A DNA stretch of 64,000 nucleotides from a virus (lineage: Duplodnaviria > Caudoviricetes), in the IMG/VR virus record IMGVR_UViG_3300033121_002193, positions 1-64,000 of that record. One strand, 5' to 3'. Position numbers and translations under genes: made by a program. Shown here piece by piece: positions 3,391 through 56,001 of this stretch. How positions within the stretch are numbered: the first letter of the stretch is position 1; each line of letters begins with the position of its first letter. The notes beneath the pieces are model-generated. The model worked only from the letters and a program-made list of their open reading frames with translations, ran no database searches and was not told the DNA's origin.

Positions 3391-4437
3391 TTTAAAAATC
3401 CTTTCAATAAGTTAAAACAACAACGATGCCTGCTGCTCCATTGCCTCCAGCTCCGCTGTTAAACCCAGATAATGAAGCACCTCCACCAGCACCACCGCCA
3501 CCATACAAACCCCCATTGCCGCCAGATCCGCCAGCCTGTGTGTCTCCAGATGCACCGCCACCGCCGCCAGCACCAGACTGATACCCTCCAGTTGTTCCGC
3601 CATTCCCTCCAGACGCTCCAGCTAAAGCGCCACCTACTCCAGCAGAAACAAGAATGGCGCCAGGACTACCACCTGTTGCACCATTTCTAAAACCAGTGTT
3701 TTGAGTGCCTCCGCCACCACCACCAGAACCAGGAGCCATTGTGCTAAATCCTACGGGGGTAGCGTTATTTACAGAGCCATTTCCTCCGGCAATTGCAAGA
3801 AATTGACCTCTTGTATTAAAATTTCCTCCAGTTCCGGCGGCAGGAGTACCTCCATTTCCGCCGGAGCCTCCATATGCCAACACAAAAGAACCAAAACTTG
3901 AATTTCCGCCAGCTGCACCATTGTTTCCATTTGTATTATCAGTAGTTATTGCCAATCCTCCAGCGCCTCCGTTTCCGACAGAAACAGATACAGAAGCTGG
4001 CATTGCGCTGAATAAAAATACGGCTTCTGAAAAATTTCCACCGGCTCCGCCGCCACCACCACATGCGGTTGCAGTTCTTCTGCCAGAACCACCACCGCCG
4101 CCACCACCTATACAAATAACTTTTACAAAAATTCCATAATTTGGCCTTGTCCATGTTCCATTAGCATTAAAAACCTGAACATTTGATACGCCACTAAATT
4201 CTAGTAGATTTAATGTAGCACCGCCGGCTAAAACAGCAGAATTATTTAAAAATCTTTTGTATGTTGTTCCGTCGCATTGTAAACTATTTGCAGGACCCGT
4301 GAATGTACCTGAAATATCGCAATTGACAAATCCTGCAGGCTTGATGTCGGTACTTGCACTTGTAAGAGTTAAACCAGCAGCATAAGTGCTAGTATTGCTT
4401 ACACTATGTCTTTCAAGTGTTGCTAATCCATCAAATT

Positions 4438-4469
4438 GACAATTCCGGTATTATGTAGCAGCTGCACCT
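4438..4469. repeat. Left TSD (GACAATTC) + left TIR of R-M cassette
   Basis: Read directly; partner at 6801-6832. Confidence 0.95.
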
Positions 4470-6012
4470 AGTAAAGGCTCAACTGTGTCGCAACCTTTTC
4501 CATGCCTGTGGTGGTATATCGGGCATAGATCTCATCACACTTTAAAAAACAAGCGAGCTTTGCCAATGAGAGGCGCTTAAGGATGTCGATTGTGATTGGC
4601 CGTTTATCATTCCAAAATATCATTGATTTCAGAAAGGCATGAGCTTCGGCCGAGTTCAGCAGCTCACAAATAAACTCTGCCTCATCCTGCGACTTACAAG
4701 ACAGGAAATAGATCGTATCATCAAAAACCACAGGCTGAGCGTTGATCGGGCCAACGGTGAAGAATTTAAGCCGCTTGTAGAATGCTGAAATAGCTACCTT
4801 CCAAAATGAGAAACTGTAATGGCCTACCCCAAAAATTGAAAATGGCGGACGATTCTTGTAGATGGAGCTTTTGCGGGCAGCGAAGGAGGACTCGTGCTCT
4901 TGCAGGTAAGCCCATGTCTTCGGTGCGGTGCGCCGAATCATGGCCGTATCCTCATTTACATAACTTTGGGTCACGATAATCTTCTTGCGACACTCTTTTA
5001 CCTTACCATTGCCGAGGTCGGAGCTTTTCAGCAGCGGATAAGTGTATTTCTGTTCAATATTCACTTGTCGGCCTAGGCCGTTCGTCAACGTGTTGCCGTT
5101 CCAATCCAGTTCCATTACCCGGCTGCAATCGTGTTTGATTCCCGACCGCCAAACATAAGAAGCGTCTGAACCCTTGAGATTGGCAAACTCCGAGTAGGCG
5201 TCTATATCCGATAGAATCATATTGTCTTTATACCCAATATGCCCACAGATTTTCGGGGTTGTTAGGCCATCATAAACGTAGCATTCAAAGCTTCTTTTTG
5301 TACCAACTTGTACGACGAACAGACACGCATCAACCGAAGCGCCGAAGTGAGCAGGCGCGTCAATCATGTAGATGGCCGCAAATTCTATCGGTTTGCTTTG
5401 CTTCCATGCTTGAAGCAGAATTTTTCGGGCAACGGCTGTTTTGCAGAGAATCCCTATCGTACCTTGTTTGTCTTTCAGCCATTCCAGGTATTGGAGCACC
5501 ATCCACTCGGAAATATCGAAGTTCGCCTTGCCGGTGATTGCATCAAGACCACTTCTTGCTTGGAAGTTCGCTTTCATGGGCAGGTTGGTTGCTTCCCATG
5601 CACCAAGGCTTGAATTTGTCACCCAAGGCGGATTGCCTGTTATCAGGATAGGTTCAGGAAGCGAAGCTACTAGCTTGCGCCAATTGACCGCAAAAAAATC
5701 GGCGTTCAATATTTGAACGTCTGTGCGTCTATCCAAATCTTTCAAGGATTGATTAAGCTCGTCATAATAGCGGGCGTTGATCTCAACACCGAGATATTTG
5801 GAAGTTGCAGGCAAGCCATGGATTGCCGCCAGCAAAAAAGTACCTTTTCCACAAGTAGGTTCAATGACGCTGGCCGGAGCGAGAGATAAGGATCGTTTAA
5901 GACAACTGATGGCTTCAGCCGCCAAGTGATGAGGTGTTTGGAAATCGCCAAAAATCTTGGTTCTGGCGATATCCGTGATTTCCGGCGTCTCAACGCACTT
6001 TATAGATACCAT
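4468..6012 (-). CDS. N6-adenine DNA methyltransferase (gamma-type; resembles NspV-like modification methylases)
   Basis: GDFQTP, IEPTCGKGTF (motif I), GNPPW (motif IV); stop codon overlaps the left TIR. Confidence 0.85.
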   Translation of the reverse strand: MVSIKCVETPEITDIARTKIFGDFQTPHHLAAEAISCLKRSLSLAPASVIEPTCGKGTFLLAAIHGLPATSKYLGVEINARYYDELNQSLKDLDRRTDVQILNADFFAVNWRKLVASLPEPILITGNPPWVTNSSLGAWEATNLPMKANFQARSGLDAITGKANFDISEWMVLQYLEWLKDKQGTIGILCKTAVARKILLQAWKQSKPIEFAAIYMIDAPAHFGASVDACLFVVQVGTKRSFECYVYDGLTTPKICGHIGYKDNMILSDIDAYSEFANLKGSDASYVWRSGIKHDCSRVMELDWNGNTLTNGLGRQVNIEQKYTYPLLKSSDLGNGKVKECRKKIIVTQSYVNEDTAMIRRTAPKTWAYLQEHESSFAARKSSIYKNRPPFSIFGVGHYSFSFWKVAISAFYKRLKFFTVGPINAQPVVFDDTIYFLSCKSQDEAEFICELLNSAEAHAFLKSMIFWNDKRPITIDILKRLSLAKLACFLKCDEIYARYTTTGMEKVATQLSLY

Positions 6013-6643
6013 CTACTTCACCAGCCTTCTGGATCACGCGGCTATATTGCAGTCGCCATTGCAGCGCATTCGAAATAGTAAGGTAACCTTGTAGCGGAGG
6101 AGCCTGCAAGACAGTCTCAGCAATGCTCCTAGCTTCAATTTCATCGACCGGCAGATTCTTGTCCCAAATAAAAGCCAACAGGTCATCCAAGTTGCCGTCA
6201 CGACTAAGAAGCTCTAAAATGCCTCTGGTCGTTTGATAGTCGGCAGTACGATCCTTTCGTACAAAAATGGTATGCAGCATTTTAAGCCTTCCAGTATGTT
6301 GCTTAGTGTCGTCGAATTTATCATAAACAAAAACCAGCAGATTATAGCCAAGTCCATAAATTTTCTGGCGAGCTGATCTGAAGGGACATGAAGATTGAGG
6401 TTGCTTAATGCTTGTCACCTTCAAATCGATTTCGAGACCGGGGAAATCAATCCCCGATGCTGAGTTTCCCGCCTCATACTGATATTTTCCGGCTAAATAG
6501 GCCTTGAACTTGTGCTCCAAATAGGTACCTATAGCCTTGCCATCCGTTATTCCGTACAAGGAAGGTTCGTCATATTTGCTCTCTATCTCAGCAAACTGAG
6601 CAGCTTCTTGTAGTAGGGTGTCCACGGTAAGCAGCAAATTCAA
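5990..6643 (-). CDS. Type II restriction endonuclease (PD-(D/E)xK; NspV-like by recollection)
   Basis: E...GIDFP..EIDLK catalytic pattern; AGAGGA RBS 7 nt before TTG start; overlaps MTase gene. Confidence 0.75.
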   Translation of the reverse strand: MNLLLTVDTLLQEAAQFAEIESKYDEPSLYGITDGKAIGTYLEHKFKAYLAGKYQYEAGNSASGIDFPGLEIDLKVTSIKQPQSSCPFRSARQKIYGLGYNLLVFVYDKFDDTKQHTGRLKMLHTIFVRKDRTADYQTTRGILELLSRDGNLDDLLAFIWDKNLPVDEIEARSIAETVLQAPPLQGYLTISNALQWRLQYSRVIQKAGEVDGIYKVR

Positions 6644-6800
6644 ATTCTTATCCTCTATGTGTAGGGCAATAAATATATATTATTTAAAACATGGACCTTT
6701 TTGATGGAAATCCATTAGTTTTCCCAAGAAAGCACAGCAATGTCGAATATCATAAAAAATCTATACGCTCCATATGATGGATTTTTAAACAAAGATTCTC

Positions 6801-6832
6801 AGGTGCGGCTGCTACATAATACCGGACAATTC
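6801..6832. repeat. Right TIR + right TSD (GACAATTC) of R-M cassette
   Basis: Read directly; inverted match to 4446-4469. Confidence 0.95.
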
Positions 6833-7833
6833 ATTGCTTGCTGTAATCTGAGTTGAGTTCCAGAAATTGCACTTTTAAATCTTGCTCTGTGTGCGTAAAG
6901 CATTGTCACTCCAGTAGGAGCGCCAACACCAGAGACACTAAAGCAAGTACCTGTTGCTGAAAAATCTTCAATTACACAAGACAAATAAACTTCTTTAGTT
7001 GTTCCACCAACAACAGAATCTACTACATTTATAATCCCGCTAATTCTAGGAACTGTATTGTATCCAATATGAGTAGTAGAACCTTCTGCCGGTATTCCTA
7101 ATGTTCCAATTCTTAAAGAATGTCTAATGCTGTCAATGTTGCCAGCTGTAATTGTCCAAGTAATATTTCGTGCATTTGTTGGTGCATAATTTGCGGTTCC
7201 TGGAGCGTATGCGCCTAAATTAAATGGCCCTCCGTTGCCCATTAAAGCAATATGCATAGAAGTTCCATCAAAAGAAATATCTTCATCATAACTTCCTGGA
7301 CTAATTAAAATGCACCACTCATATCTTACTCCGGTTGTTGTTAATGGCGTAGCTGTTCTGGCTGCCGAAATTGCAGCAGAAATTGTAACATATGGGTCTG
7401 CAATTGTTCCAGTTGGTGCAACCGCCGTTGAGTTTAAATCAACGTATAAAATTCTTGTTAATGGTGAAATTGCGGTAGAAGCTACATCTGGTTGCCACTG
7501 AGTACCATTATATTTTAATATTTGCCCAGCAAGTGGAGGCGTTGCCGAAACATTTACACCTTGTATTTTTGCTGCATCTGTACCTGAAGGTATTCTATTT
7601 ATATTAAAAACGCCAGATGATATTTTGCTAGCATCTAAATTTGGGATTGCCGCCGAAGTTAATCCGCCTACTGTCATAGCTCCACCAGAAACAATGGCGA
7701 CCTGATCATTTATTAGACCAGCGCTAACATCTTGACCAAATCCTCCATTTTCTTTAGGTACATTATTTACTGCAATTACACTACCAGAATTATAAGTTAA
7801 AATTTTTGCCATTTTTCACCTTACAAAAAAAAA

Positions 7834-49603: not shown

Positions 49604-49668
49604 AACAAGAAATAAATTAACTTTATCCGATGCATTAAATGAACAATTTAATTTAGGCACCTATATAC

Positions 49669-49697
49669 TTGTTTAACCCAAAATAATTTGATATAAA
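49669..49697 (+). promoter_or_regulatory. Transposase promoter, -35 inside the left TIR
   Basis: TTGTTT-17 bp-TATAAA with TGn extension, 7 nt before ATG 49705. Confidence 0.5.
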
Positions 49698-49704
49698 AAC
49701 CGTT

Positions 49705-50622
49705 ATGGAATTCACGAATCTCATAGAAGTGACTGAATACTTTTCAGACAAGCAGAAATGCATTGAGTATTTGACTCACATGAGATGGGCCAATGGTGTG
49801 CAATGTGTTTTTTGTGCCAATGAAAAAGTTTACGAATTAAAAGGTGAAAACAAGCGATACAAATGTGCCAAGTGCAGGAAGCAGTTTTCAGCCATTAAAG
49901 GCACCATTTTTGAAAACAGCCCAATTTCTCTGCAAAAATGGTTTTTGGCGGTTTACATTCTCACGTCTTATAAAAAAGGCATCAGCTCTGTTCAATTAGC
50001 CAGTGATTTAGGTGTGACTCAAAAAACCGCCTGGTTCATGGCTCAAAGAATCAGGTATGCCTTAAAAGTAAAATCCTTTGATTCACAATTAGAAGGCCCT
50101 GTCCAATGTGACGAAACGTTTATAGGCGGCAAAAATAAGAACAGGCATGCTGATAAAAAGGTACCTGAATCACAGGGTAGAAGCCTCAAAGACAAAACGC
50201 CTGTTTTTGGTGTTTTACAAACAGGTGGCCAATTGCATACGTCTGTCGTGCCAGATACCAAAGCTTCCACGTTAAAACCCATCATTAAAGAGCTGGTTAG
50301 AAACGGTTCTATTATTGTCACTGATGAGTGGACTGCTTACCAAAACCTGTCAAAAGATTACGATCACGTTGTCATTAATCACAAAAAACGTGAATATGTT
50401 AAAGGTGTACATCACATCAACGGCATAGAAGGGTTTTGGAGCGTCTTTAAAAGGGGTATTTACGGAATTTATCACCAAGTAAGCCCTAAACATTTGCACC
50501 GTTATTGTGATGAATTTGCGTTTAGGTACAACACCAAAAATTTGAACAACACCTGCAAATTTGATCTGTCATTAAAACGGACAGACTGCAGGTTGACCTA
50601 TAAGAACTTAATCTCTAAGTGA
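49705..50622 (+). CDS. IS1595-family transposase
   Basis: Zn ribbon CVFC...CAKC, GISSVQLA...QKTAW HTH, DETFIGG, TDEW, HINGIEGFWS, HLHRYCDEF. Confidence 0.97.
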   Translation: MEFTNLIEVTEYFSDKQKCIEYLTHMRWANGVQCVFCANEKVYELKGENKRYKCAKCRKQFSAIKGTIFENSPISLQKWFLAVYILTSYKKGISSVQLASDLGVTQKTAWFMAQRIRYALKVKSFDSQLEGPVQCDETFIGGKNKNRHADKKVPESQGRSLKDKTPVFGVLQTGGQLHTSVVPDTKASTLKPIIKELVRNGSIIVTDEWTAYQNLSKDYDHVVINHKKREYVKGVHHINGIEGFWSVFKRGIYGIYHQVSPKHLHRYCDEFAFRYNTKNLNNTCKFDLSLKRTDCRLTYKNLISK

Positions 50623-50674
50623 GATGAATATTTATTTTTAAAATATTTTTTAGGAAAAATTTAAACTAGCCAGT

Positions 50675-52672
50675 ATGTCACAAGTGAAAGATAATTCCCC
50701 ACTCAATTTAAATTTGGCGTCTCATGATGTTCTTGCTGAGCGTATTGAGAAACTAAAAGCGTTAATGCCCGAAGTTTTTACCGAGGGCAAGATTGATTTC
50801 GATCAGCTCAAACGATTCTTGGGTGAATGGGTTGAGCCCGGCAAAGAACGCTTTGGCCTGCAATGGCCTGGTAAAGCTGATTGTATAAAGATCATCCAGC
50901 AAACCAGCGTTGCCACACTGAAACCCTGTCGAGAAGAATCCGTCAACTTTGATGAAACAGAAAACGTATTTATTGAAGGTGAAAATCTTGAAGTTTTAAA
51001 ACTTTTACAGAAGGCCTACTTTGGCAAGATCAAAATGATATACATTGATCCGCCTTACAATACAGGCAAAGAATTCATCTATCCCGACAAATATTCTGAA
51101 ACGCTCGAGTCCTACCTTGCTTATACTGGCCAAGTTGATGATGAAGGGAAAAATTTTTCAACTGATAAAGACGCACAGGGACGTTTTCATACACGTTGGC
51201 TAAACATGATGTATCCACGTCTGCTTCTTGCGCGAAATTTACTCAGAGAAGATGGAGTGATTTTTATCTCTATCGATGACAATGAATTCAGTAATCTTGA
51301 AAATTTATGTAATGAAATCTTTGGTGAAGAAAATCACTTAACAACACTTCATATAAAGGTCAGGTATGAGGGTAAAACATTGGTAGAAGATATGGATTTT
51401 CAAAAGCTTGTTGAGCAAGTTTTAGTCTACGCAAAATCAAAGGCGCAGGTTAAATTGAACAAGCCGAGAAGTTCATACTCTTTTGATAAATTCAGATACA
51501 AAATCATTGAAAAAGGAGTTCCTAAAACAATTAACCTTGGCGGAAAAAAAGTAGAGATATTTTCTAGCAGCCAATTTGAAATTATAGATGCTGGCCCTTC
51601 TAAAGAAAATCTCAAAGAAATATGGGCTTCAGGAAAGATTTTGGATGGGAATTCATCTGGCAGGTTTTTCCGGGATTATCTATCCGGAAGAAGTGAAACC
51701 GACGGCTTAGGTGTACTTTATAAAGTACACGAGATAGGCAGTGATAATCTGTCGTATAGGTACTTTACAGGACCGAAGAGAGAGAGTGCTACAAAGGGAA
51801 GATATTATCAAGGTGTTCCATCGGATGTATTAATTGAAGAGCGGACTGAGCGGGCAATGCCAATAACAACGTTTTATGACTTCGCTGACAACTTTGGAAA
51901 TTGTAGACATGAGGGAAATATAGATTTTCGTGACGGGAAAAAACCCGTCGAATTTTTAAAAACTCTTATCAATTTGATCCATCATGATTCTGATGAGATA
52001 CTGTTGGACTTTTTCGCTGGTTCGGGATCGTTCGCGCATGCAGTATTAGATTTTGCCCAGGAACACGATCTTCGACTCAAGACTATTTCTATACAATTAC
52101 CGGAACCTCTTAAAGAAGAAGGTGAAAGTTCTAAAATTGGCTTTAAGACCATAGCAGATATAGGTAAAGAGCGTTTCCGTAGGGTTATCGGCAAATTGGC
52201 GAACAGCCTTGATGGGCAATTACGATTCTCGAAAAATAAATTTGATCTTGGTTTTAAAGTTTTCAAGCTTGATCGATCCAATTTCAAAATTTGGGAGCAT
52301 CATTCGGAAAAAGCCGACAACTTTGTTGAGCAACTCTCCCTATATGTAGATCATATTGATCCCCAAAGTACCCCTGAAGCTCTCCTTTACGAATTACTCC
52401 TTAAATCGGGCTTTCCACTGACTGCGACGGTTAACCAAATCACCTTGGCGGGCAAACAGGTTTTCTCAATTGATAGTGGCAAGATGTTGCTGTGTTTTGA
52501 GGATCCGATCAAAGAAGAAACCCTTTTAGAGATGCTAAAGCATCAGCCTGCAATAATGGTTGCACTTGATAAGGCCTTTCATGGCAACGATCAGTTAAAA
52601 ACTAACATTAAGTTACAAGCTGAAGCCATAGGTGAATCTGAACACGGCCGAGTGTTATTTAAGACGGTATAA
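50675..52672 (+). CDS. mod: Type III R-M methyltransferase subunit
   Basis: FIEGENLEVLKLL, IYIDPPYNTG, KKP..L, LDFFAGSGS (beta-class order). Confidence 0.93.
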   Translation: MSQVKDNSPLNLNLASHDVLAERIEKLKALMPEVFTEGKIDFDQLKRFLGEWVEPGKERFGLQWPGKADCIKIIQQTSVATLKPCREESVNFDETENVFIEGENLEVLKLLQKAYFGKIKMIYIDPPYNTGKEFIYPDKYSETLESYLAYTGQVDDEGKNFSTDKDAQGRFHTRWLNMMYPRLLLARNLLREDGVIFISIDDNEFSNLENLCNEIFGEENHLTTLHIKVRYEGKTLVEDMDFQKLVEQVLVYAKSKAQVKLNKPRSSYSFDKFRYKIIEKGVPKTINLGGKKVEIFSSSQFEIIDAGPSKENLKEIWASGKILDGNSSGRFFRDYLSGRSETDGLGVLYKVHEIGSDNLSYRYFTGPKRESATKGRYYQGVPSDVLIEERTERAMPITTFYDFADNFGNCRHEGNIDFRDGKKPVEFLKTLINLIHHDSDEILLDFFAGSGSFAHAVLDFAQEHDLRLKTISIQLPEPLKEEGESSKIGFKTIADIGKERFRRVIGKLANSLDGQLRFSKNKFDLGFKVFKLDRSNFKIWEHHSEKADNFVEQLSLYVDHIDPQSTPEALLYELLLKSGFPLTATVNQITLAGKQVFSIDSGKMLLCFEDPIKEETLLEMLKHQPAIMVALDKAFHGNDQLKTNIKLQAEAIGESEHGRVLFKTV

Positions 52673-52682
52673 GGAATTTAGA

Positions 52683-55412
52683 ATGAAAATTAAATTTGAT
52701 GCCTCCCAACAATACCAGCTCGACGCTATTCAATCAGTTGTAAATTTGTTTAATGGCCAACCTATGGCCGGGCAGGAATTTAGAATCAACTCCGTGTTCG
52801 GTTCGTTAAGCATGCCGCACTCCGCACTTGGCTTTGGTAACCGCCTGATTTTGTCAGATGCTAAGCTATTGGAAAATCTTCATGCCGTGCAAGCAAAAAA
52901 TGGTCTTAACCTCTCAGAAAAACTTTTAGGAGAGAGTGTCGAATACGACGCCCAAAATCTCGAATATCGGCTTACCAGCAACGCCAGAGAGAATGGCTGG
53001 TGTGTTCCACATTTTTCCGTTGAAATGGAAACGGGCACAGGCAAGACTTATGTTTATTTACGTAGTATTTTTGAGTTGCATAAAAATTATGGTTTTACCA
53101 AGTTCATTATCGTTGTGCCGACTGTGGCGATTCGTGAAGGCGTTAAAGCCAGTATTGACCTCACAGCTGAACATTTCAAAACGCTTTACGACAACACTCC
53201 ACTCAATCATTGGATTTATGATTCCAAATATGCTTCACGCTTACGTGATTATGCTGCTAGCAATCAAATTCAAATTCTAATCATTAATATCGATGCTTTT
53301 AATAAAAAGGATATCGCAGTCATCCATAACGAACGCGATCAGACATCGGGCAGGAAACCTATTGAGTTTATTCAAGCATGTAATCCTATCGTTATTATTG
53401 ACGAGCCCCAAAATATGGAGTCCGAGATCGCTAGACGAGCGATTACCAGTCTCAATCCGCTTTGTACACTACGCTATTCTGCAACTCACCTTAATCCGTA
53501 CAATGTTGTTTATCGGCTTGGACCTGTAAAAGCCTACGATTTAGGCTTGGTGAAGCGGATCGAAGTTAATTCTATCCTAGAAGAATCCAATTTCAGCAAA
53601 CCTTTTATTCATGTGCAGAGCATACAAAATACCAGCAAGAACAAGATTGTTGCCAAGTTGATTGTTGACGTTGAAGAAAAATTAGGACCACAGCGCAAAA
53701 CCATCAAGGTTGAAAAGCGTGGCGATGACCTTCATCAACTGACAAAGCGTGAGGCTTATAAAGGTTATTTCGTTGAAGAAATTCGTACTGACTATAAAAT
53801 CATTTCCTTCTCCAACGGTGTGACTCTCACAGAAGGACAAATTCACGGCGAACGAATTGATGATCGCTTGCGTATCCAAATTAAGGAAACGGTTAAGGAA
53901 CATTTTGAAAAAGAACTTTATATTTCTAAGCTATCCGAAAGCCAACGACTCAAAGTGCTATCGTTATTTTTTATCGATCGTGTATCAAATTATCGTTTAG
54001 ATAATGGAGGTAAAGGCAAAATCGCCCTTTGGTTTGAAGAAGCTTACGAAGAACTCCGCCATCATGACCGCTATAAATTCTTAGATTTGCCCTCAGTCGA
54101 CAAGGTTCATGACGGATATTTCGCTCAGGATAAAAAAGGCAATTATAAGGATTCGAGGGAAACCACTGAAAATCAGGAAGATCGCGATACTTATGTTGTT
54201 ATCATGAAGGATAAGATGCGTTTGTTGTCCTTTGCTGAGCCATTAAAATTCATCTTTAGTCATAGCGCGCTGCGCGAAGGTTGGGACAATCCTAATGTCT
54301 TTCAGATTTGCACGCTAAATGAAACACGTTCTGAGTTTAAAAAGCGTCAGGAAATTGGCCGTGGCCTCCGTCTTCCTGTGCGAGTGAATGGAGAGCGCTG
54401 TTTTGATAACGTTATTAATCGCCTTACTGTTATTGCCAACGAAAGTTACGATGATTTTGCACGTAACCTGCAAACTGAAATCGAAAAAGAAACGGGTGAG
54501 AAATTTGAAGGACGCATTAGAAATGTGCGGAGTCGCCGACGCGTCCAACTTAAAAAAGGGTGGCGTTTGGATCAGAACTTTGTTGAAATCTGGAATCGTA
54601 TTAAGCACAAAACACGTTATGCAGTTAGGTACTCAACTGAAGAACTTATCGAAAAGAGCGCTAAAGAACTATCCAAGAGCAAACCTATCTCTACTCCTAA
54701 ATTTACCATTCGCAAAAGCGAAATTATTACTACAAAGTCAGGTTTAGAGACTGAACTGCGCTCAGCTCGTGAAGAATTTATTGAATATTTTCACACTCAA
54801 GTTCCTGATTTAATTGGTTACCTTCAATCAAAGACAGAATTGACTCGTGGGACTTTAGCTAAAATCATTATTGAATCAGGACGTATTTCGGAAATTCACA
54901 AAAATCCTCAAAAATTCTTAGAACAAGCCTTAGAAGCCATCCAGCGAACATTGCGCAAGCTTATGGTTGACGGCATTAAGTATGAAAAAATTGATGGTGA
55001 TGAGTATGCAATGATGTTGTTTGAAGAACATTATGAACACAAGGAAATTTATAGTTATCTGGATCGTTTGATAGCTGTTGATCATTCAATTGTTAATTAT
55101 CTTGAATACGAATCAGAAATAGAGAAAAATTTTGCTGAGGCGTTAGATAAGCGTTCTGATATTAAATTGTTTTTCAAATTGCCTAGATGGTTTTTCGTTA
55201 AAACGCCCCTAGGAAATTACAATCCAGATTGGGCCATTGTGAAAGAAGAACAGGGTAAGTTTTTTAAATTATACCTCGTACGTGAAACAAAAGGAAAAAC
55301 AAGCAAGTCTGAATTACGCTCAAGTGAAGAGATGAAAATTGATTGTGGTTCTGCACACTTCAAAGAATTGAATGTCGATTTTGGCTGGATAGAAAATGCA
55401 GAGCAAATTTAG
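52683..55412 (+). CDS. res: Type III restriction endonuclease/helicase subunit
   Basis: METGTGKT, DEPQ, YSAT, LREGWDNPNVFQIC, QEIGRGLR, YNPDW...ETK; AAGGA RBS before ATG 52683. Confidence 0.93.
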   Translation: MKIKFDASQQYQLDAIQSVVNLFNGQPMAGQEFRINSVFGSLSMPHSALGFGNRLILSDAKLLENLHAVQAKNGLNLSEKLLGESVEYDAQNLEYRLTSNARENGWCVPHFSVEMETGTGKTYVYLRSIFELHKNYGFTKFIIVVPTVAIREGVKASIDLTAEHFKTLYDNTPLNHWIYDSKYASRLRDYAASNQIQILIINIDAFNKKDIAVIHNERDQTSGRKPIEFIQACNPIVIIDEPQNMESEIARRAITSLNPLCTLRYSATHLNPYNVVYRLGPVKAYDLGLVKRIEVNSILEESNFSKPFIHVQSIQNTSKNKIVAKLIVDVEEKLGPQRKTIKVEKRGDDLHQLTKREAYKGYFVEEIRTDYKIISFSNGVTLTEGQIHGERIDDRLRIQIKETVKEHFEKELYISKLSESQRLKVLSLFFIDRVSNYRLDNGGKGKIALWFEEAYEELRHHDRYKFLDLPSVDKVHDGYFAQDKKGNYKDSRETTENQEDRDTYVVIMKDKMRLLSFAEPLKFIFSHSALREGWDNPNVFQICTLNETRSEFKKRQEIGRGLRLPVRVNGERCFDNVINRLTVIANESYDDFARNLQTEIEKETGEKFEGRIRNVRSRRRVQLKKGWRLDQNFVEIWNRIKHKTRYAVRYSTEELIEKSAKELSKSKPISTPKFTIRKSEIITTKSGLETELRSAREEFIEYFHTQVPDLIGYLQSKTELTRGTLAKIIIESGRISEIHKNPQKFLEQALEAIQRTLRKLMVDGIKYEKIDGDEYAMMLFEEHYEHKEIYSYLDRLIAVDHSIVNYLEYESEIEKNFAEALDKRSDIKLFFKLPRWFFVKTPLGNYNPDWAIVKEEQGKFFKLYLVRETKGKTSKSELRSSEEMKIDCGSAHFKELNVDFGWIENAEQI

Positions 55413-55419
55413 AAAACCC

Positions 55420-55557
55420 ATGAAAACCCAAACCAAACACCCATCTAAAAAATCCAGCAAATTGTCTGCTTTTGAAGCAGCCATGATTAAAATTGCTCAG
55501 ACTCCTAAAAAAGACGTTGAAAAAGCCATTGCTCAAGATAAGAAAAAGAAAAACTGA
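55420..55557 (+). CDS. 45-aa basic peptide at right end of IS1595 element (not in ORF track)
   Basis: MKTQTKHPSKKSSKLSAFEAAMIKIAQTPKKDVEKAIAQDKKKKN. Confidence 0.5.
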   Translation: MKTQTKHPSKKSSKLSAFEAAMIKIAQTPKKDVEKAIAQDKKKKN

Positions 55558-56001
55558 AGGACTTGAGATCTGGGAATTTTTGGTTTGATTTGAATTTGTT
55601 TTGAATAGTCTGTTTGATAATTGGGTTAAACAGGTATGTAGGTGCCTTAATTTAATTCAAGGATTAATAGTCGGAATAAATCCGCAAGAGACTATATGGA
55701 TTTGCACTTGTTGTAATCAAATTCATAAACCTATTGATGTATGTGCTTTAGCTCCTCGTGGATTATATAACTTGTACAAAAAAGAAAAAAGAGAAATTTG
55801 GGAGAATTTTTCAAATGCTTACAGTACATCAAATAATAATGAATTATGGTGTCTTTCTTGTGCTCCTAAGAACAAAAAAATAAAAGTAAAATCTATTGTT
55901 TTGAGTTTTTTATTTGTTTTTTTTCAAAAAAATATTGATTAGTATTTCAATAATTGCTAACTATTTTCTTAACAATAAAGCTGAATAAATGGAGATGAAA
56001 A

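What the first reader, a model, noticed from the sequence alone, without database searches (positions are those of the whole stretch)
4438..6832. Minimal transposase-free R-M cassette with IS1595/ISNha5-type ends
Seen: 2379 bp holding only REase + MTase and ~160 bp of upstream DNA between 24-bp TIRs, with an 8-bp TSD; the MTase stop codon overlaps the TIR. Established: IS1595-family elements make 8-bp TSDs, the ISNha5 group has CGGnnTT ends, and non-autonomous passenger cassettes exist in the family. Its ends differ from the IS1595 element at 49656 (GGCACC), so the mobilising transposase is probably elsewhere. Inference: a selfish R-M unit moved in trans and kept by post-segregational killing.
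Basis: partly seen in the sequence, partly recalled or inferred. Interest (0 to 1): 0.75.

Follow-up and report, generated by a model that had tools for sequence, protein, structure and literature searches.

The report
Transposase-less restriction-modification cassette in a phage
A two-gene restriction-modification system sits between the end repeats of an IS1595-type jumping gene, has no transposase of its own, and has split a tail-fibre-like gene of a large phage; a full element with the same ends and an intact transposase lies 60 kb away in the same genome, so this is a clean example of a known kind of hitch-hiking cassette, here with its likely driver identified.

Summary
A 2379-bp unit (4446-6824) has 24-bp terminal inverted repeats (23/24) and a perfect 8-bp target duplication (GACAATTC). 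It holds only a type II restriction enzyme gene, its methylase gene and 157 bp of upstream DNA. The methylase stop codon overlaps the left repeat. Removing the unit and one duplication copy restores a single 673-codon tail-fibre-like gene.

The window is the first 64 kb of a 135-kb virus record. It is a 3.83-kb IS1595-family element whose right end is identical (24/24) to the cassette's left end. It has an intact 353-aa transposase and passenger genes, including a Panacea-type antitoxin pair.

None of 85 homologous restriction-modification loci elsewhere carries these ends, so the capture looks lineage-specific. The TTCGAA specificity is not established, and post-segregational killing is untested.

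The kind is known: mobile insertion cassettes, IS1595 transporter ISs, and the inverted-repeat-flanked restriction-modification units with 8-bp duplications of Furuta et al. 2010. This scan has noted transposase-less IS1595 restriction-modification cassettes in at least 12 other genomes. What is particular here is the phage setting and the cognate autonomous element in the same genome. I rate it a new member of a known kind, of moderate interest.

The parts
4438..4445 (.). Left copy of the 8-bp target-site duplication, GACAATTC
   Evidence: Identical to 6825-6832
4446..4469 (+). Left 24-bp terminal inverted repeat, CGGTATTATGTAGCAGCTGCACCT
   Evidence: Matches the right TIR at 23/24 positions. 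Matches the right end of the autonomous element at genome 70485-70508 at 24/24 positions
4468..6012 (-). Type II N6-adenine DNA methyltransferase, 514 aa, with motif I EPTCGKG and motif IV NPPW
   Evidence: PF02384 at 4.2e-5, above cut-off. PADLOC MTase_II PDLC03310 at 3.7e-161. Homologues align to residue 513-514, so the C-terminus is complete. The stop codon overlaps the TIR
5990..6643 (-). Type II restriction endonuclease, 217 aa, overlapping the MTase start by 23 bp
   Evidence: NF052465 at 1e-105, full profile. PADLOC REase_II at 2.4e-101. All invariant residues of a 33-sequence alignment are present, including D66...D73-x-K75. AF2 model has pLDDT 91.5, and its best, though weak, PDB matches are type II PD-(D/E)XK enzymes
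6644..6800 (-). 157-bp AT-rich upstream region of the REase, the presumed promoter; GAGGA lies 6 nt before the TTG start
   Evidence: Sequence read directly. No sigma-70 consensus site was found here. No similarity to either transposase
6801..6824 (-). Right 24-bp terminal inverted repeat
   Evidence: One mismatch to the left TIR
6825..6832 (.). Right copy of the 8-bp target-site duplication, GACAATTC
6833..7812 (-). N-terminal 326 codons of the interrupted phage tail-fibre-like gene; the present ORF 6799-7812 runs on into the TIR and stops there
   Evidence: Joining this part to 3404-4445 after removing the cassette and one TSD copy gives one open 673-codon frame
3404..4445 (-). C-terminal, glycine-rich 347 codons of the interrupted tail-fibre-like gene, now without a start codon
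   Evidence: PHROG tail families: phrog_863 at 1.8e-25, plus minor tail and tail fibre families

Best explanation
The unit at 4446-6824 is a mobile insertion cassette: two ends of an IS1595-family insertion sequence that enclose a complete type II restriction-modification gene pair in place of a transposase. It entered the phage genome by DDE transposition, which duplicated 8 bp of a tail-fibre-like gene and split that gene. The enzyme that recognises its ends is most likely the 353-aa IS1595 transposase of the 3.83-kb element at 66679-70508 of the same genome, or a near-identical copy in the host, acting in trans. The cassette most likely arose from a passenger-carrying IS (ends, transposase, R-M, ends) by loss of the transposase gene. 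The window holds exactly that architecture, with other ends, at 49.6-55.6 kb. Shown: the anatomy, the insertion event, the intact cargo, and the existence of the cognate autonomous element. Inferred: mobilisation in trans, origin by deletion, and what the R-M pair does. It could act as an addiction module if the phage persists in cells. Alternatively it could serve the phage as a weapon that cuts unmodified host or rival-phage DNA while the phage's own DNA is methylated.
For: The TIRs, the TSD and their chance expectation are given. Excising the unit in silico restores one 673-codon ORF whose C-terminal half matches tail PHROGs. Baseplate genes lie nearby. The cassette is 45.4% G+C against 30.3% for the genome, so it is foreign DNA. 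The same TIR occurs at 66679 (+) and 70508 (-), and the latter is 24/24 identical to the cassette's left end. Between those two ends lies a 353-aa ORF matching PF12762 (2.6e-41, profile 3-153/153) and the IS1595 zinc ribbon. It has no internal stops, and the D, D and E motifs are present. Removing that element plus 8 bp restores a MORN-repeat ORF in register. The cassette and the full element share nothing but their ends. The other IS1595 transposase in the genome is only 30% identical and has different ends. The cargo is complete: both proteins cover their profiles end to end, and 80 of 85 homologous loci keep the same REase-MTase pair. Published background supports each piece. IS1595 elements make 8-bp duplications (PMC8101967). 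[quoted passage not shown] R-M pairs flanked by inverted repeats and 8-bp duplications have been described and proposed to be non-autonomous transposons (PMC2853133).
Against: Only one copy of the cassette is known. None of 85 homologous R-M loci has the TIR, including the closest one, Scytonema, at 84% amino-acid identity. The TIR was absent from viral contigs and from 401 sampled Bacteroidota genomes. It occurred only as two single ends in metagenome contigs. Repeated mobility is therefore not shown. [quoted passage not shown] The left end of the autonomous element starts CAG rather than CGG, and its own duplication is only 5/8. No promoter consensus was found upstream of the REase. Whether IS1595 transposases act efficiently in trans is not known to me.
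Confidence: 0.78

Rival explanations
1. The element inserted here as an autonomous passenger-carrying IS (ends, transposase, R-M, ends) and lost its transposase gene afterwards by an internal deletion in place. On this reading it never moved as a transposase-less cassette and is now a fixed relic.
For: The window's other IS1595 element (about 49656-55646) has exactly that architecture, with a transposase followed by a methylase and a 926-aa ORF. This genome shows other signs of IS-linked rearrangement, namely a hybrid 468-bp element, lone ends and a transposase fragment.
Against: Nothing resembling a transposase remains in the 157-bp non-coding stretch. The perfect duplication and near-perfect ends point to a recent event. 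A cognate transposase is available in the same genome, so the cassette remains mobilisable either way.
Confidence: 0.17
2. The unit was placed here by something other than IS1595 transposition. Candidates are homologous recombination between repeat copies, an activity of the R-M proteins themselves, or a chimeric metagenome assembly.
For: Furuta et al. left open whether R-M products could act as the transposase for such units (PMC2853133). The record is a metagenome assembly.
Against: The ends are those of a transposase-bearing IS1595 element in the same genome. The duplication is exactly 8 bp, as for that family. Excision restores the reading frame to the base. A chimeric join would not create a target duplication.
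Confidence: 0.03

Closest known systems
Transposon-like R-M units of Furuta, Abe and Kobayashi 2010 (PMC2853133): type II R-M genes in Xanthomonas oryzae (65-bp inverted repeats) and Neisseria gonorrhoeae (26-bp inverted repeats), each with an 8-bp target duplication
   Same: R-M genes are the only or main cargo, they lie between imperfect terminal inverted repeats, and an 8-bp duplication is seen at a defined insertion point. The authors proposed them as possible non-autonomous transposons.
   Different: [quoted passage not shown] Here the ends belong to an intact IS1595-family element in the same genome, and the replicon is a phage.
Mobile insertion cassettes (MIC231 of Bacillus cereus, De Palmenaer et al. 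2004; the qnrS2 mic of Aeromonas plasmids), as summarised in PMC3129680 and PMC4444841
   Same: IS ends enclose passenger genes instead of a transposase, and a cognate IS in the same genome can mobilise them.
   Different: The IS family differs (IS231/IS4 there, IS1595 here), as does the cargo (a peptidase or quinolone resistance gene there, a type II R-M pair here). Mobilisation was shown experimentally for MIC231 but not here.
Transporter ISs of the IS1595 family (Siguier, Gagnevin and Chandler 2009; ISNha5 is named as a passenger-carrying member in PMC11891212)
   Same: The partner at 66.7-70.5 kb has the family's zinc-ribbon plus DDE transposase, 8-bp target spacing, passenger genes and an end reading CGGTATT. 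By my recollection of the ISfinder table, that fits the ISNha5-group CGGnnTT ends.
   Different: The cassette itself lacks the transposase. Subgroup placement was not tested by phylogeny against ISfinder references.

Membership tests
IS1595-family non-autonomous derivative (mobile insertion cassette) | Terminal inverted repeats matching those of a transposase-bearing IS of the family | tested here: met
   The left TIR is 24/24 identical to the right end of the element at 66679-70508, which encodes a PF12762 plus PF12760 transposase
IS1595-family non-autonomous derivative (mobile insertion cassette) | 8-bp target-site duplication | tested here: met
   GACAATTC on both sides; excision restores one ORF; the family trait is given in PMC8101967
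IS1595-family non-autonomous derivative (mobile insertion cassette) | No transposase inside; the cargo is unrelated to transposition | tested here: met
   Only the REase and MTase are present; there is no transposase remnant
IS1595-family non-autonomous derivative (mobile insertion cassette) | Moves when the cognate transposase is supplied in trans, or copies occur at several sites | tested here: not met
   A single copy in the genome, and none in viral contigs, in 85 R-M loci or in the sampled genomes. Trans-mobilisation itself cannot be tested with these tools.
ISNha5 subgroup of IS1595 | Ends CGGnnTT and an element of several kb with passenger genes (definition recalled from ISfinder; I could not verify it in the paper library) | tested here: met
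   Both cassette ends and the partner's right end read CGGTATT, while the partner's left end reads CAGTATT. The partner is 3830 bp and carries HTH, DUF6471 and Panacea genes.
ISNha5 subgroup of IS1595 | The transposase clusters with ISNha5-group reference transposases | not testable with these tools
   No ISfinder reference sequences were on hand. The nearest named relative is a Chitinophagales IS1595 transposase at 59% identity.
Type II restriction-modification system | Separate REase and MTase genes, adjacent, both matching curated type II models at full length | tested here: met
   NF052465 scores 351 bits against a cut-off of 290. PADLOC MTase_II and REase_II both match. The pair is conserved in 80 of 85 loci.
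Type II restriction-modification system | Catalytic motifs present | tested here: met
   The MTase has EPTCGKG and NPPW. The REase has the invariant D66...D73-x-K75. The fold matches to PD-(D/E)XK enzymes are weak.
NspV/BstBI-like isoschizomers (TTCGAA) | Recognition of TTCGAA | tested here: inconclusive
   TTCGAA is the second most depleted of 64 palindromic hexamers (O/E 0.44) in 635 kb around homologous R-M loci. However, CTCGAG, GTCGAC and ATCGAT are also depleted, and I had no control set. The closest solved MTase is M.BseCI (ATCGAT), matching only weakly. REBASE was not available.

The most novel reading that the evidence does not exclude
This phage may be an active shuttle for IS1595-borne addiction and defence modules. 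The cassette (type II R-M), the autonomous element (Panacea-type toxin-antitoxin pair) and the second IS1595 element (type III-like R-M) would then all be currently mobile. On this reading the cassette and its partner form a working trans-mobilisation pair that carries restriction systems between bacteria inside virions.
Probability: 0.25. Interest if true: 0.6.

Novelty: new member of a known kind. Interest (0 to 1): 0.42.

Why it matters
Restriction-modification systems are known to spread horizontally, but how they move is usually left unstated. Furuta et al. (2010) found R-M pairs between inverted repeats with 8-bp duplications. They could only say that a transposase acting in trans could not be excluded. 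Here the same anatomy comes with the cognate transposase-bearing element in the same 135-kb genome, so the proposal becomes directly testable with two defined DNA pieces. The phage setting is also unusual. Only 2 of 50,697 deposited phage records gave even a distant match to this transposase. A phage setting means that a virion could deliver the cassette to new hosts. The insertion also shows a cost, because it splits a tail-fibre-like gene.

Tried and rejected
- **TIR in public collections.** I found 0 matches in viral contigs and 2 single ends on 57% G+C soil contigs in metagenome contigs. Their cargo is uninformative, and the adjacent transposase lies outside the end and is only 30% identical. 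There were 0 matches in 401 sampled Bacteroidota genomes. In the three genomes holding close R-M homologues there were only chance-level matches with 3 mismatches.
- **Closest transposase relatives.** These are 93% identical and sit on contigs of up to 13 kb.
- **Empty site in a related phage.** I found no close relative in viral contigs. The longer homologues share only N-terminal repeat motifs or the glycine-rich part and do not span the junction.
- **Transposase remnant inside the cassette.** None was found.
- **Composite of two MITE-like elements.** I rejected this because the cassette has no internal TIR copies.
- **Capture through a fortuitous end-like sequence.** I rejected this because both ends are near-perfect.
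- **TTCGAA specificity from palindrome depletion.** The result is suggestive but not discriminating. The phage itself shows no depletion (14 sites, O/E 0.86).
- **Sigma-70 promoter scan upstream of the REase.** Nothing was found in the 157-bp region.
- **The CGGnnTT definition.** I could not verify it in the paper library.
- **Other ends of this TIR family.** I could not reconstruct a single rearrangement that explains them (notebook, 'unexplained').

Full report
**The observation**

The arms 4446-4469 and 6801-6824 are 24-bp inverted repeats that match at 23 of 24 positions. Their 17-nt core, allowing up to 3 mismatches, occurs exactly twice in the 64-kb window, in inverted orientation. Chance would give 0.07 matches, and none of 100 shuffles gave two. 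The octamer GACAATTC flanks the unit directly on both sides, at 4438-4445 and 6825-6832. The unit is 2379 bp.

Both of its genes lie on the minus strand and overlap by 23 bp.
- The 217-aa protein from 5990-6643 matches the NCBIfam type II restriction endonuclease model NF052465 over the whole profile (1e-105, 351 bits against a cut-off of 290). It also matches PADLOC REase_II (2.4e-101).
- The 514-aa protein from 4468-6012 is an N6-adenine methyltransferase. It matches Pfam N6_Mtase above cut-off and PADLOC MTase_II (3.7e-161, profile 5-474 of 475). It carries the EPTCGKG and NPPW motifs.

The methyltransferase stop codon (4468-4470) shares two bases with the left repeat. Between the endonuclease start and the right repeat lie 157 bp of AT-rich DNA.

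**The insertion event**

Removing 4446-6832 in silico, that is the unit plus one copy of the octamer, fuses the flanks into one open minus-strand frame of 673 codons running from 7812 to 3404. Its C-terminal, glycine-rich half matches PHROG tail families (phrog_863 at 1.8e-25, plus minor tail and tail fibre families). Baseplate proteins are encoded a little further along. The unit is 45.4% G+C in a genome of 30.3%. It is therefore foreign DNA that inserted into a tail-fibre-like structural gene with an 8-bp target duplication, the hallmark of IS1595-family transposition (PMC8101967). I found no related phage with the intact gene, so the evidence for the event is internal to this sequence. That evidence is exact to the base.

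**The partner element**

The window is the first 64 kb of a 135,485-bp IMG/VR virus record. A search of the whole record for the repeat found further ends. Two of them, at 66679 (+) and 70508 (-), bound a 3830-bp element. Its right end is identical to the cassette's left end at 24 of 24 positions, and its left end matches at 22 of 24.

Inside is a 353-aa ORF (68136-69197, minus strand). It has the IS1595 zinc ribbon and a complete ISXO2-like DDE domain (2.6e-41, profile 3-153 of 153), no internal stops, and the D, D and E motifs in place.

The element also carries several passenger genes:
- an HTH_3 regulator;
- a DUF6471 protein;
- a Panacea/SocA-type antitoxin, overlapped by a 138-aa ORF that is probably its toxin.

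Removing this element plus 8 bp restores a MORN-repeat ORF in perfect repeat register, although the two octamers now match at only 5 of 8 positions.

The cassette and this element share nothing except their ends. The other intact IS1595 transposase of the genome (window 49705-50622) is only 30% identical. It sits in a roughly 6-kb element with quite different ends (GGCACCTATATACTTG...) that also carries a methylase and a 926-aa ORF.

**How it most likely works**

The cassette has the anatomy of a mobile insertion cassette: IS ends around passenger genes with no transposase. [quoted passage not shown]

I think it arose from a passenger-carrying IS by loss of the transposase gene. The window's second IS1595 element shows the presumed parent architecture. 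The cargo is an exact, complete copy of a widely conserved two-gene unit.
- 80 of 85 homologous loci keep the same endonuclease-methylase pair, and their methylases align to residue 513-514 of 514.
- All invariant residues of a 33-sequence endonuclease alignment are present, including D66...D73-x-K75.
- The AlphaFold model is confident (pLDDT 91.5). Its best PDB matches are weak but are nearly all type II PD-(D/E)XK enzymes.

What the pair does for its carrier is inference. It may be an addiction module if the phage persists in cells. The partner element carries a toxin-antitoxin pair and the second IS1595 element another R-M system, so addictive cargo is a shared theme. Alternatively it may serve the phage by cutting unmodified host or rival DNA while phage DNA is methylated. 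I cannot separate these readings.

**What speaks against, and rivals**

Only one copy of the cassette is known.
- The endonuclease family is very large, with at least 535 loci in representative genomes. The best match is Scytonema at 84% amino-acid identity but only 71% DNA identity, confined to the coding region. The family also occurs on plasmids of Nostoc, Aeromonas, Klebsiella and lactic acid bacteria.
- None of the 85 loci fetched carries the repeat.
- The repeat is absent from viral contigs and from 401 sampled Bacteroidota genomes.
- In metagenome contigs it appears only as two single ends of a related soil element.

Repeated movement of the cassette is therefore not shown.

The serious rival is that it inserted with its own transposase and lost that gene in place. 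I give this about 0.17, because no remnant is left and a cognate transposase is at hand anyway. Recombination, R-M-driven movement and assembly error are very unlikely given the exact 8-bp duplication and the shared IS ends.

**Specificity**

The recollection of an NspV-like TTCGAA site could not be checked against REBASE. In 635 kb pooled from the homologous loci, TTCGAA is the second most depleted palindromic hexamer (observed/expected 0.44). However, CTCGAG, GTCGAC and ATCGAT are depleted too, and I had no control set. The nearest solved methylase is M.BseCI (ATCGAT), matched only weakly in the catalytic domain. I record this point as inconclusive.

**Comparison with what is known**

Furuta, Abe and Kobayashi (2010; PMC2853133) described type II R-M pairs between imperfect inverted repeats with 8-bp duplications in Xanthomonas and Neisseria. 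They noted that a transposase acting in trans could not be excluded. Their repeats were unique in each genome, and no transposase family was named. IS1595 transporter ISs with passenger genes are established (PMC3129680, PMC11891212).

The notes of this scan list transposase-less IS1595 cassettes with R-M cargo in at least 12 other genomes, and IS1595-type cassettes in another phage. Those are unchecked AI notes and I did not test them, but they agree with the literature that the kind is known.

What this case adds is the cognate autonomous element in the same replicon, a phage as carrier, and a clear cost in the form of a split tail gene. Only 2 of 50,697 deposited phage records gave even a distant match to this transposase. 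I class it as a new member of a known kind, well supported and of moderate interest.

**Limits**

- The ISNha5 end consensus CGGnnTT rests on my memory of the ISfinder table and was not found in the paper library.
- The host is unknown.

Noticed in passing
L007:2679-6508 (genome 66679-70508, outside the window): An autonomous 3.83-kb IS1595-family element with the same ends as the cassette. It carries an HTH_3 regulator, a DUF6471 protein and a Panacea/SocA antitoxin overlapped by a 138-aa ORF (weak PADLOC NsnC hit) that is probably its toxin. It is inserted in a MORN-repeat gene.
   Followed up: yes
L008:1633-2100 (genome 84633-85100): A 468-bp transposase-less element that joins an end of the partner's left type to a variant end (CGGTATTGTATAACAACTGCACCT). 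Its left junction is a breakpoint relative to a 99%-identical duplicate at genome 82601-82732, and its right flank is not continuous with that copy. It therefore marks a rearrangement rather than a simple insertion.
   Followed up: partly
L007:6899-7128 (genome 70899-71128): A fragment of the other IS1595 transposase type, 90% identical to window 50458-50558, lies next to a lone left end (CGGTATTGTATAACAGCTGCACCT at 71105). An IrrE/M78 peptidase gene follows.
   Followed up: partly
window:59268-59291: A degenerate right-end-like copy of the TIR with 5 mismatches (AAGTATTATGTCGCAGTTTCACCT on the minus strand). No partner end was found.
   Followed up: no
window:49645-55657: A second IS1595-family element bounded by 37-bp inverted repeats (89%). 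It holds a 305-aa transposase, an N6_N4 methylase (50675-52672) and a 926-aa ORF (52632-55412). This is a passenger-carrying IS with a type III-like R-M system.
   Followed up: partly
window:1246-2067: A 273-aa serine recombinase (PHROG integrase/DNA invertase families) lies about 1.3 kb from the end of the tail-fibre-like gene. The position recalls the invertases that switch tail-fibre genes in some phages.
   Followed up: no
L018, L024, L038, L048, L054 (match region from 4001): The endonuclease homologues in these genomes, including Thermodesulfovibrio and a Sodalis endosymbiont, each have one internal stop codon. They are probably inactivated restriction genes beside retained methylases.
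   Followed up: no
L094:1582-1663 and L095:328-406: Two 57% G+C soil metagenome contigs share an 82-bp IS end (85% identical) that begins with the same 24-bp repeat (2-3 mismatches). This end family therefore also exists in high-G+C bacteria.
   Followed up: partly
L009-L093 pooled: All four xTCGAx palindromes (CTCGAG, TTCGAA, GTCGAC, ATCGAT) are among the ten most depleted hexamers around loci that carry this R-M family.
   Followed up: partly
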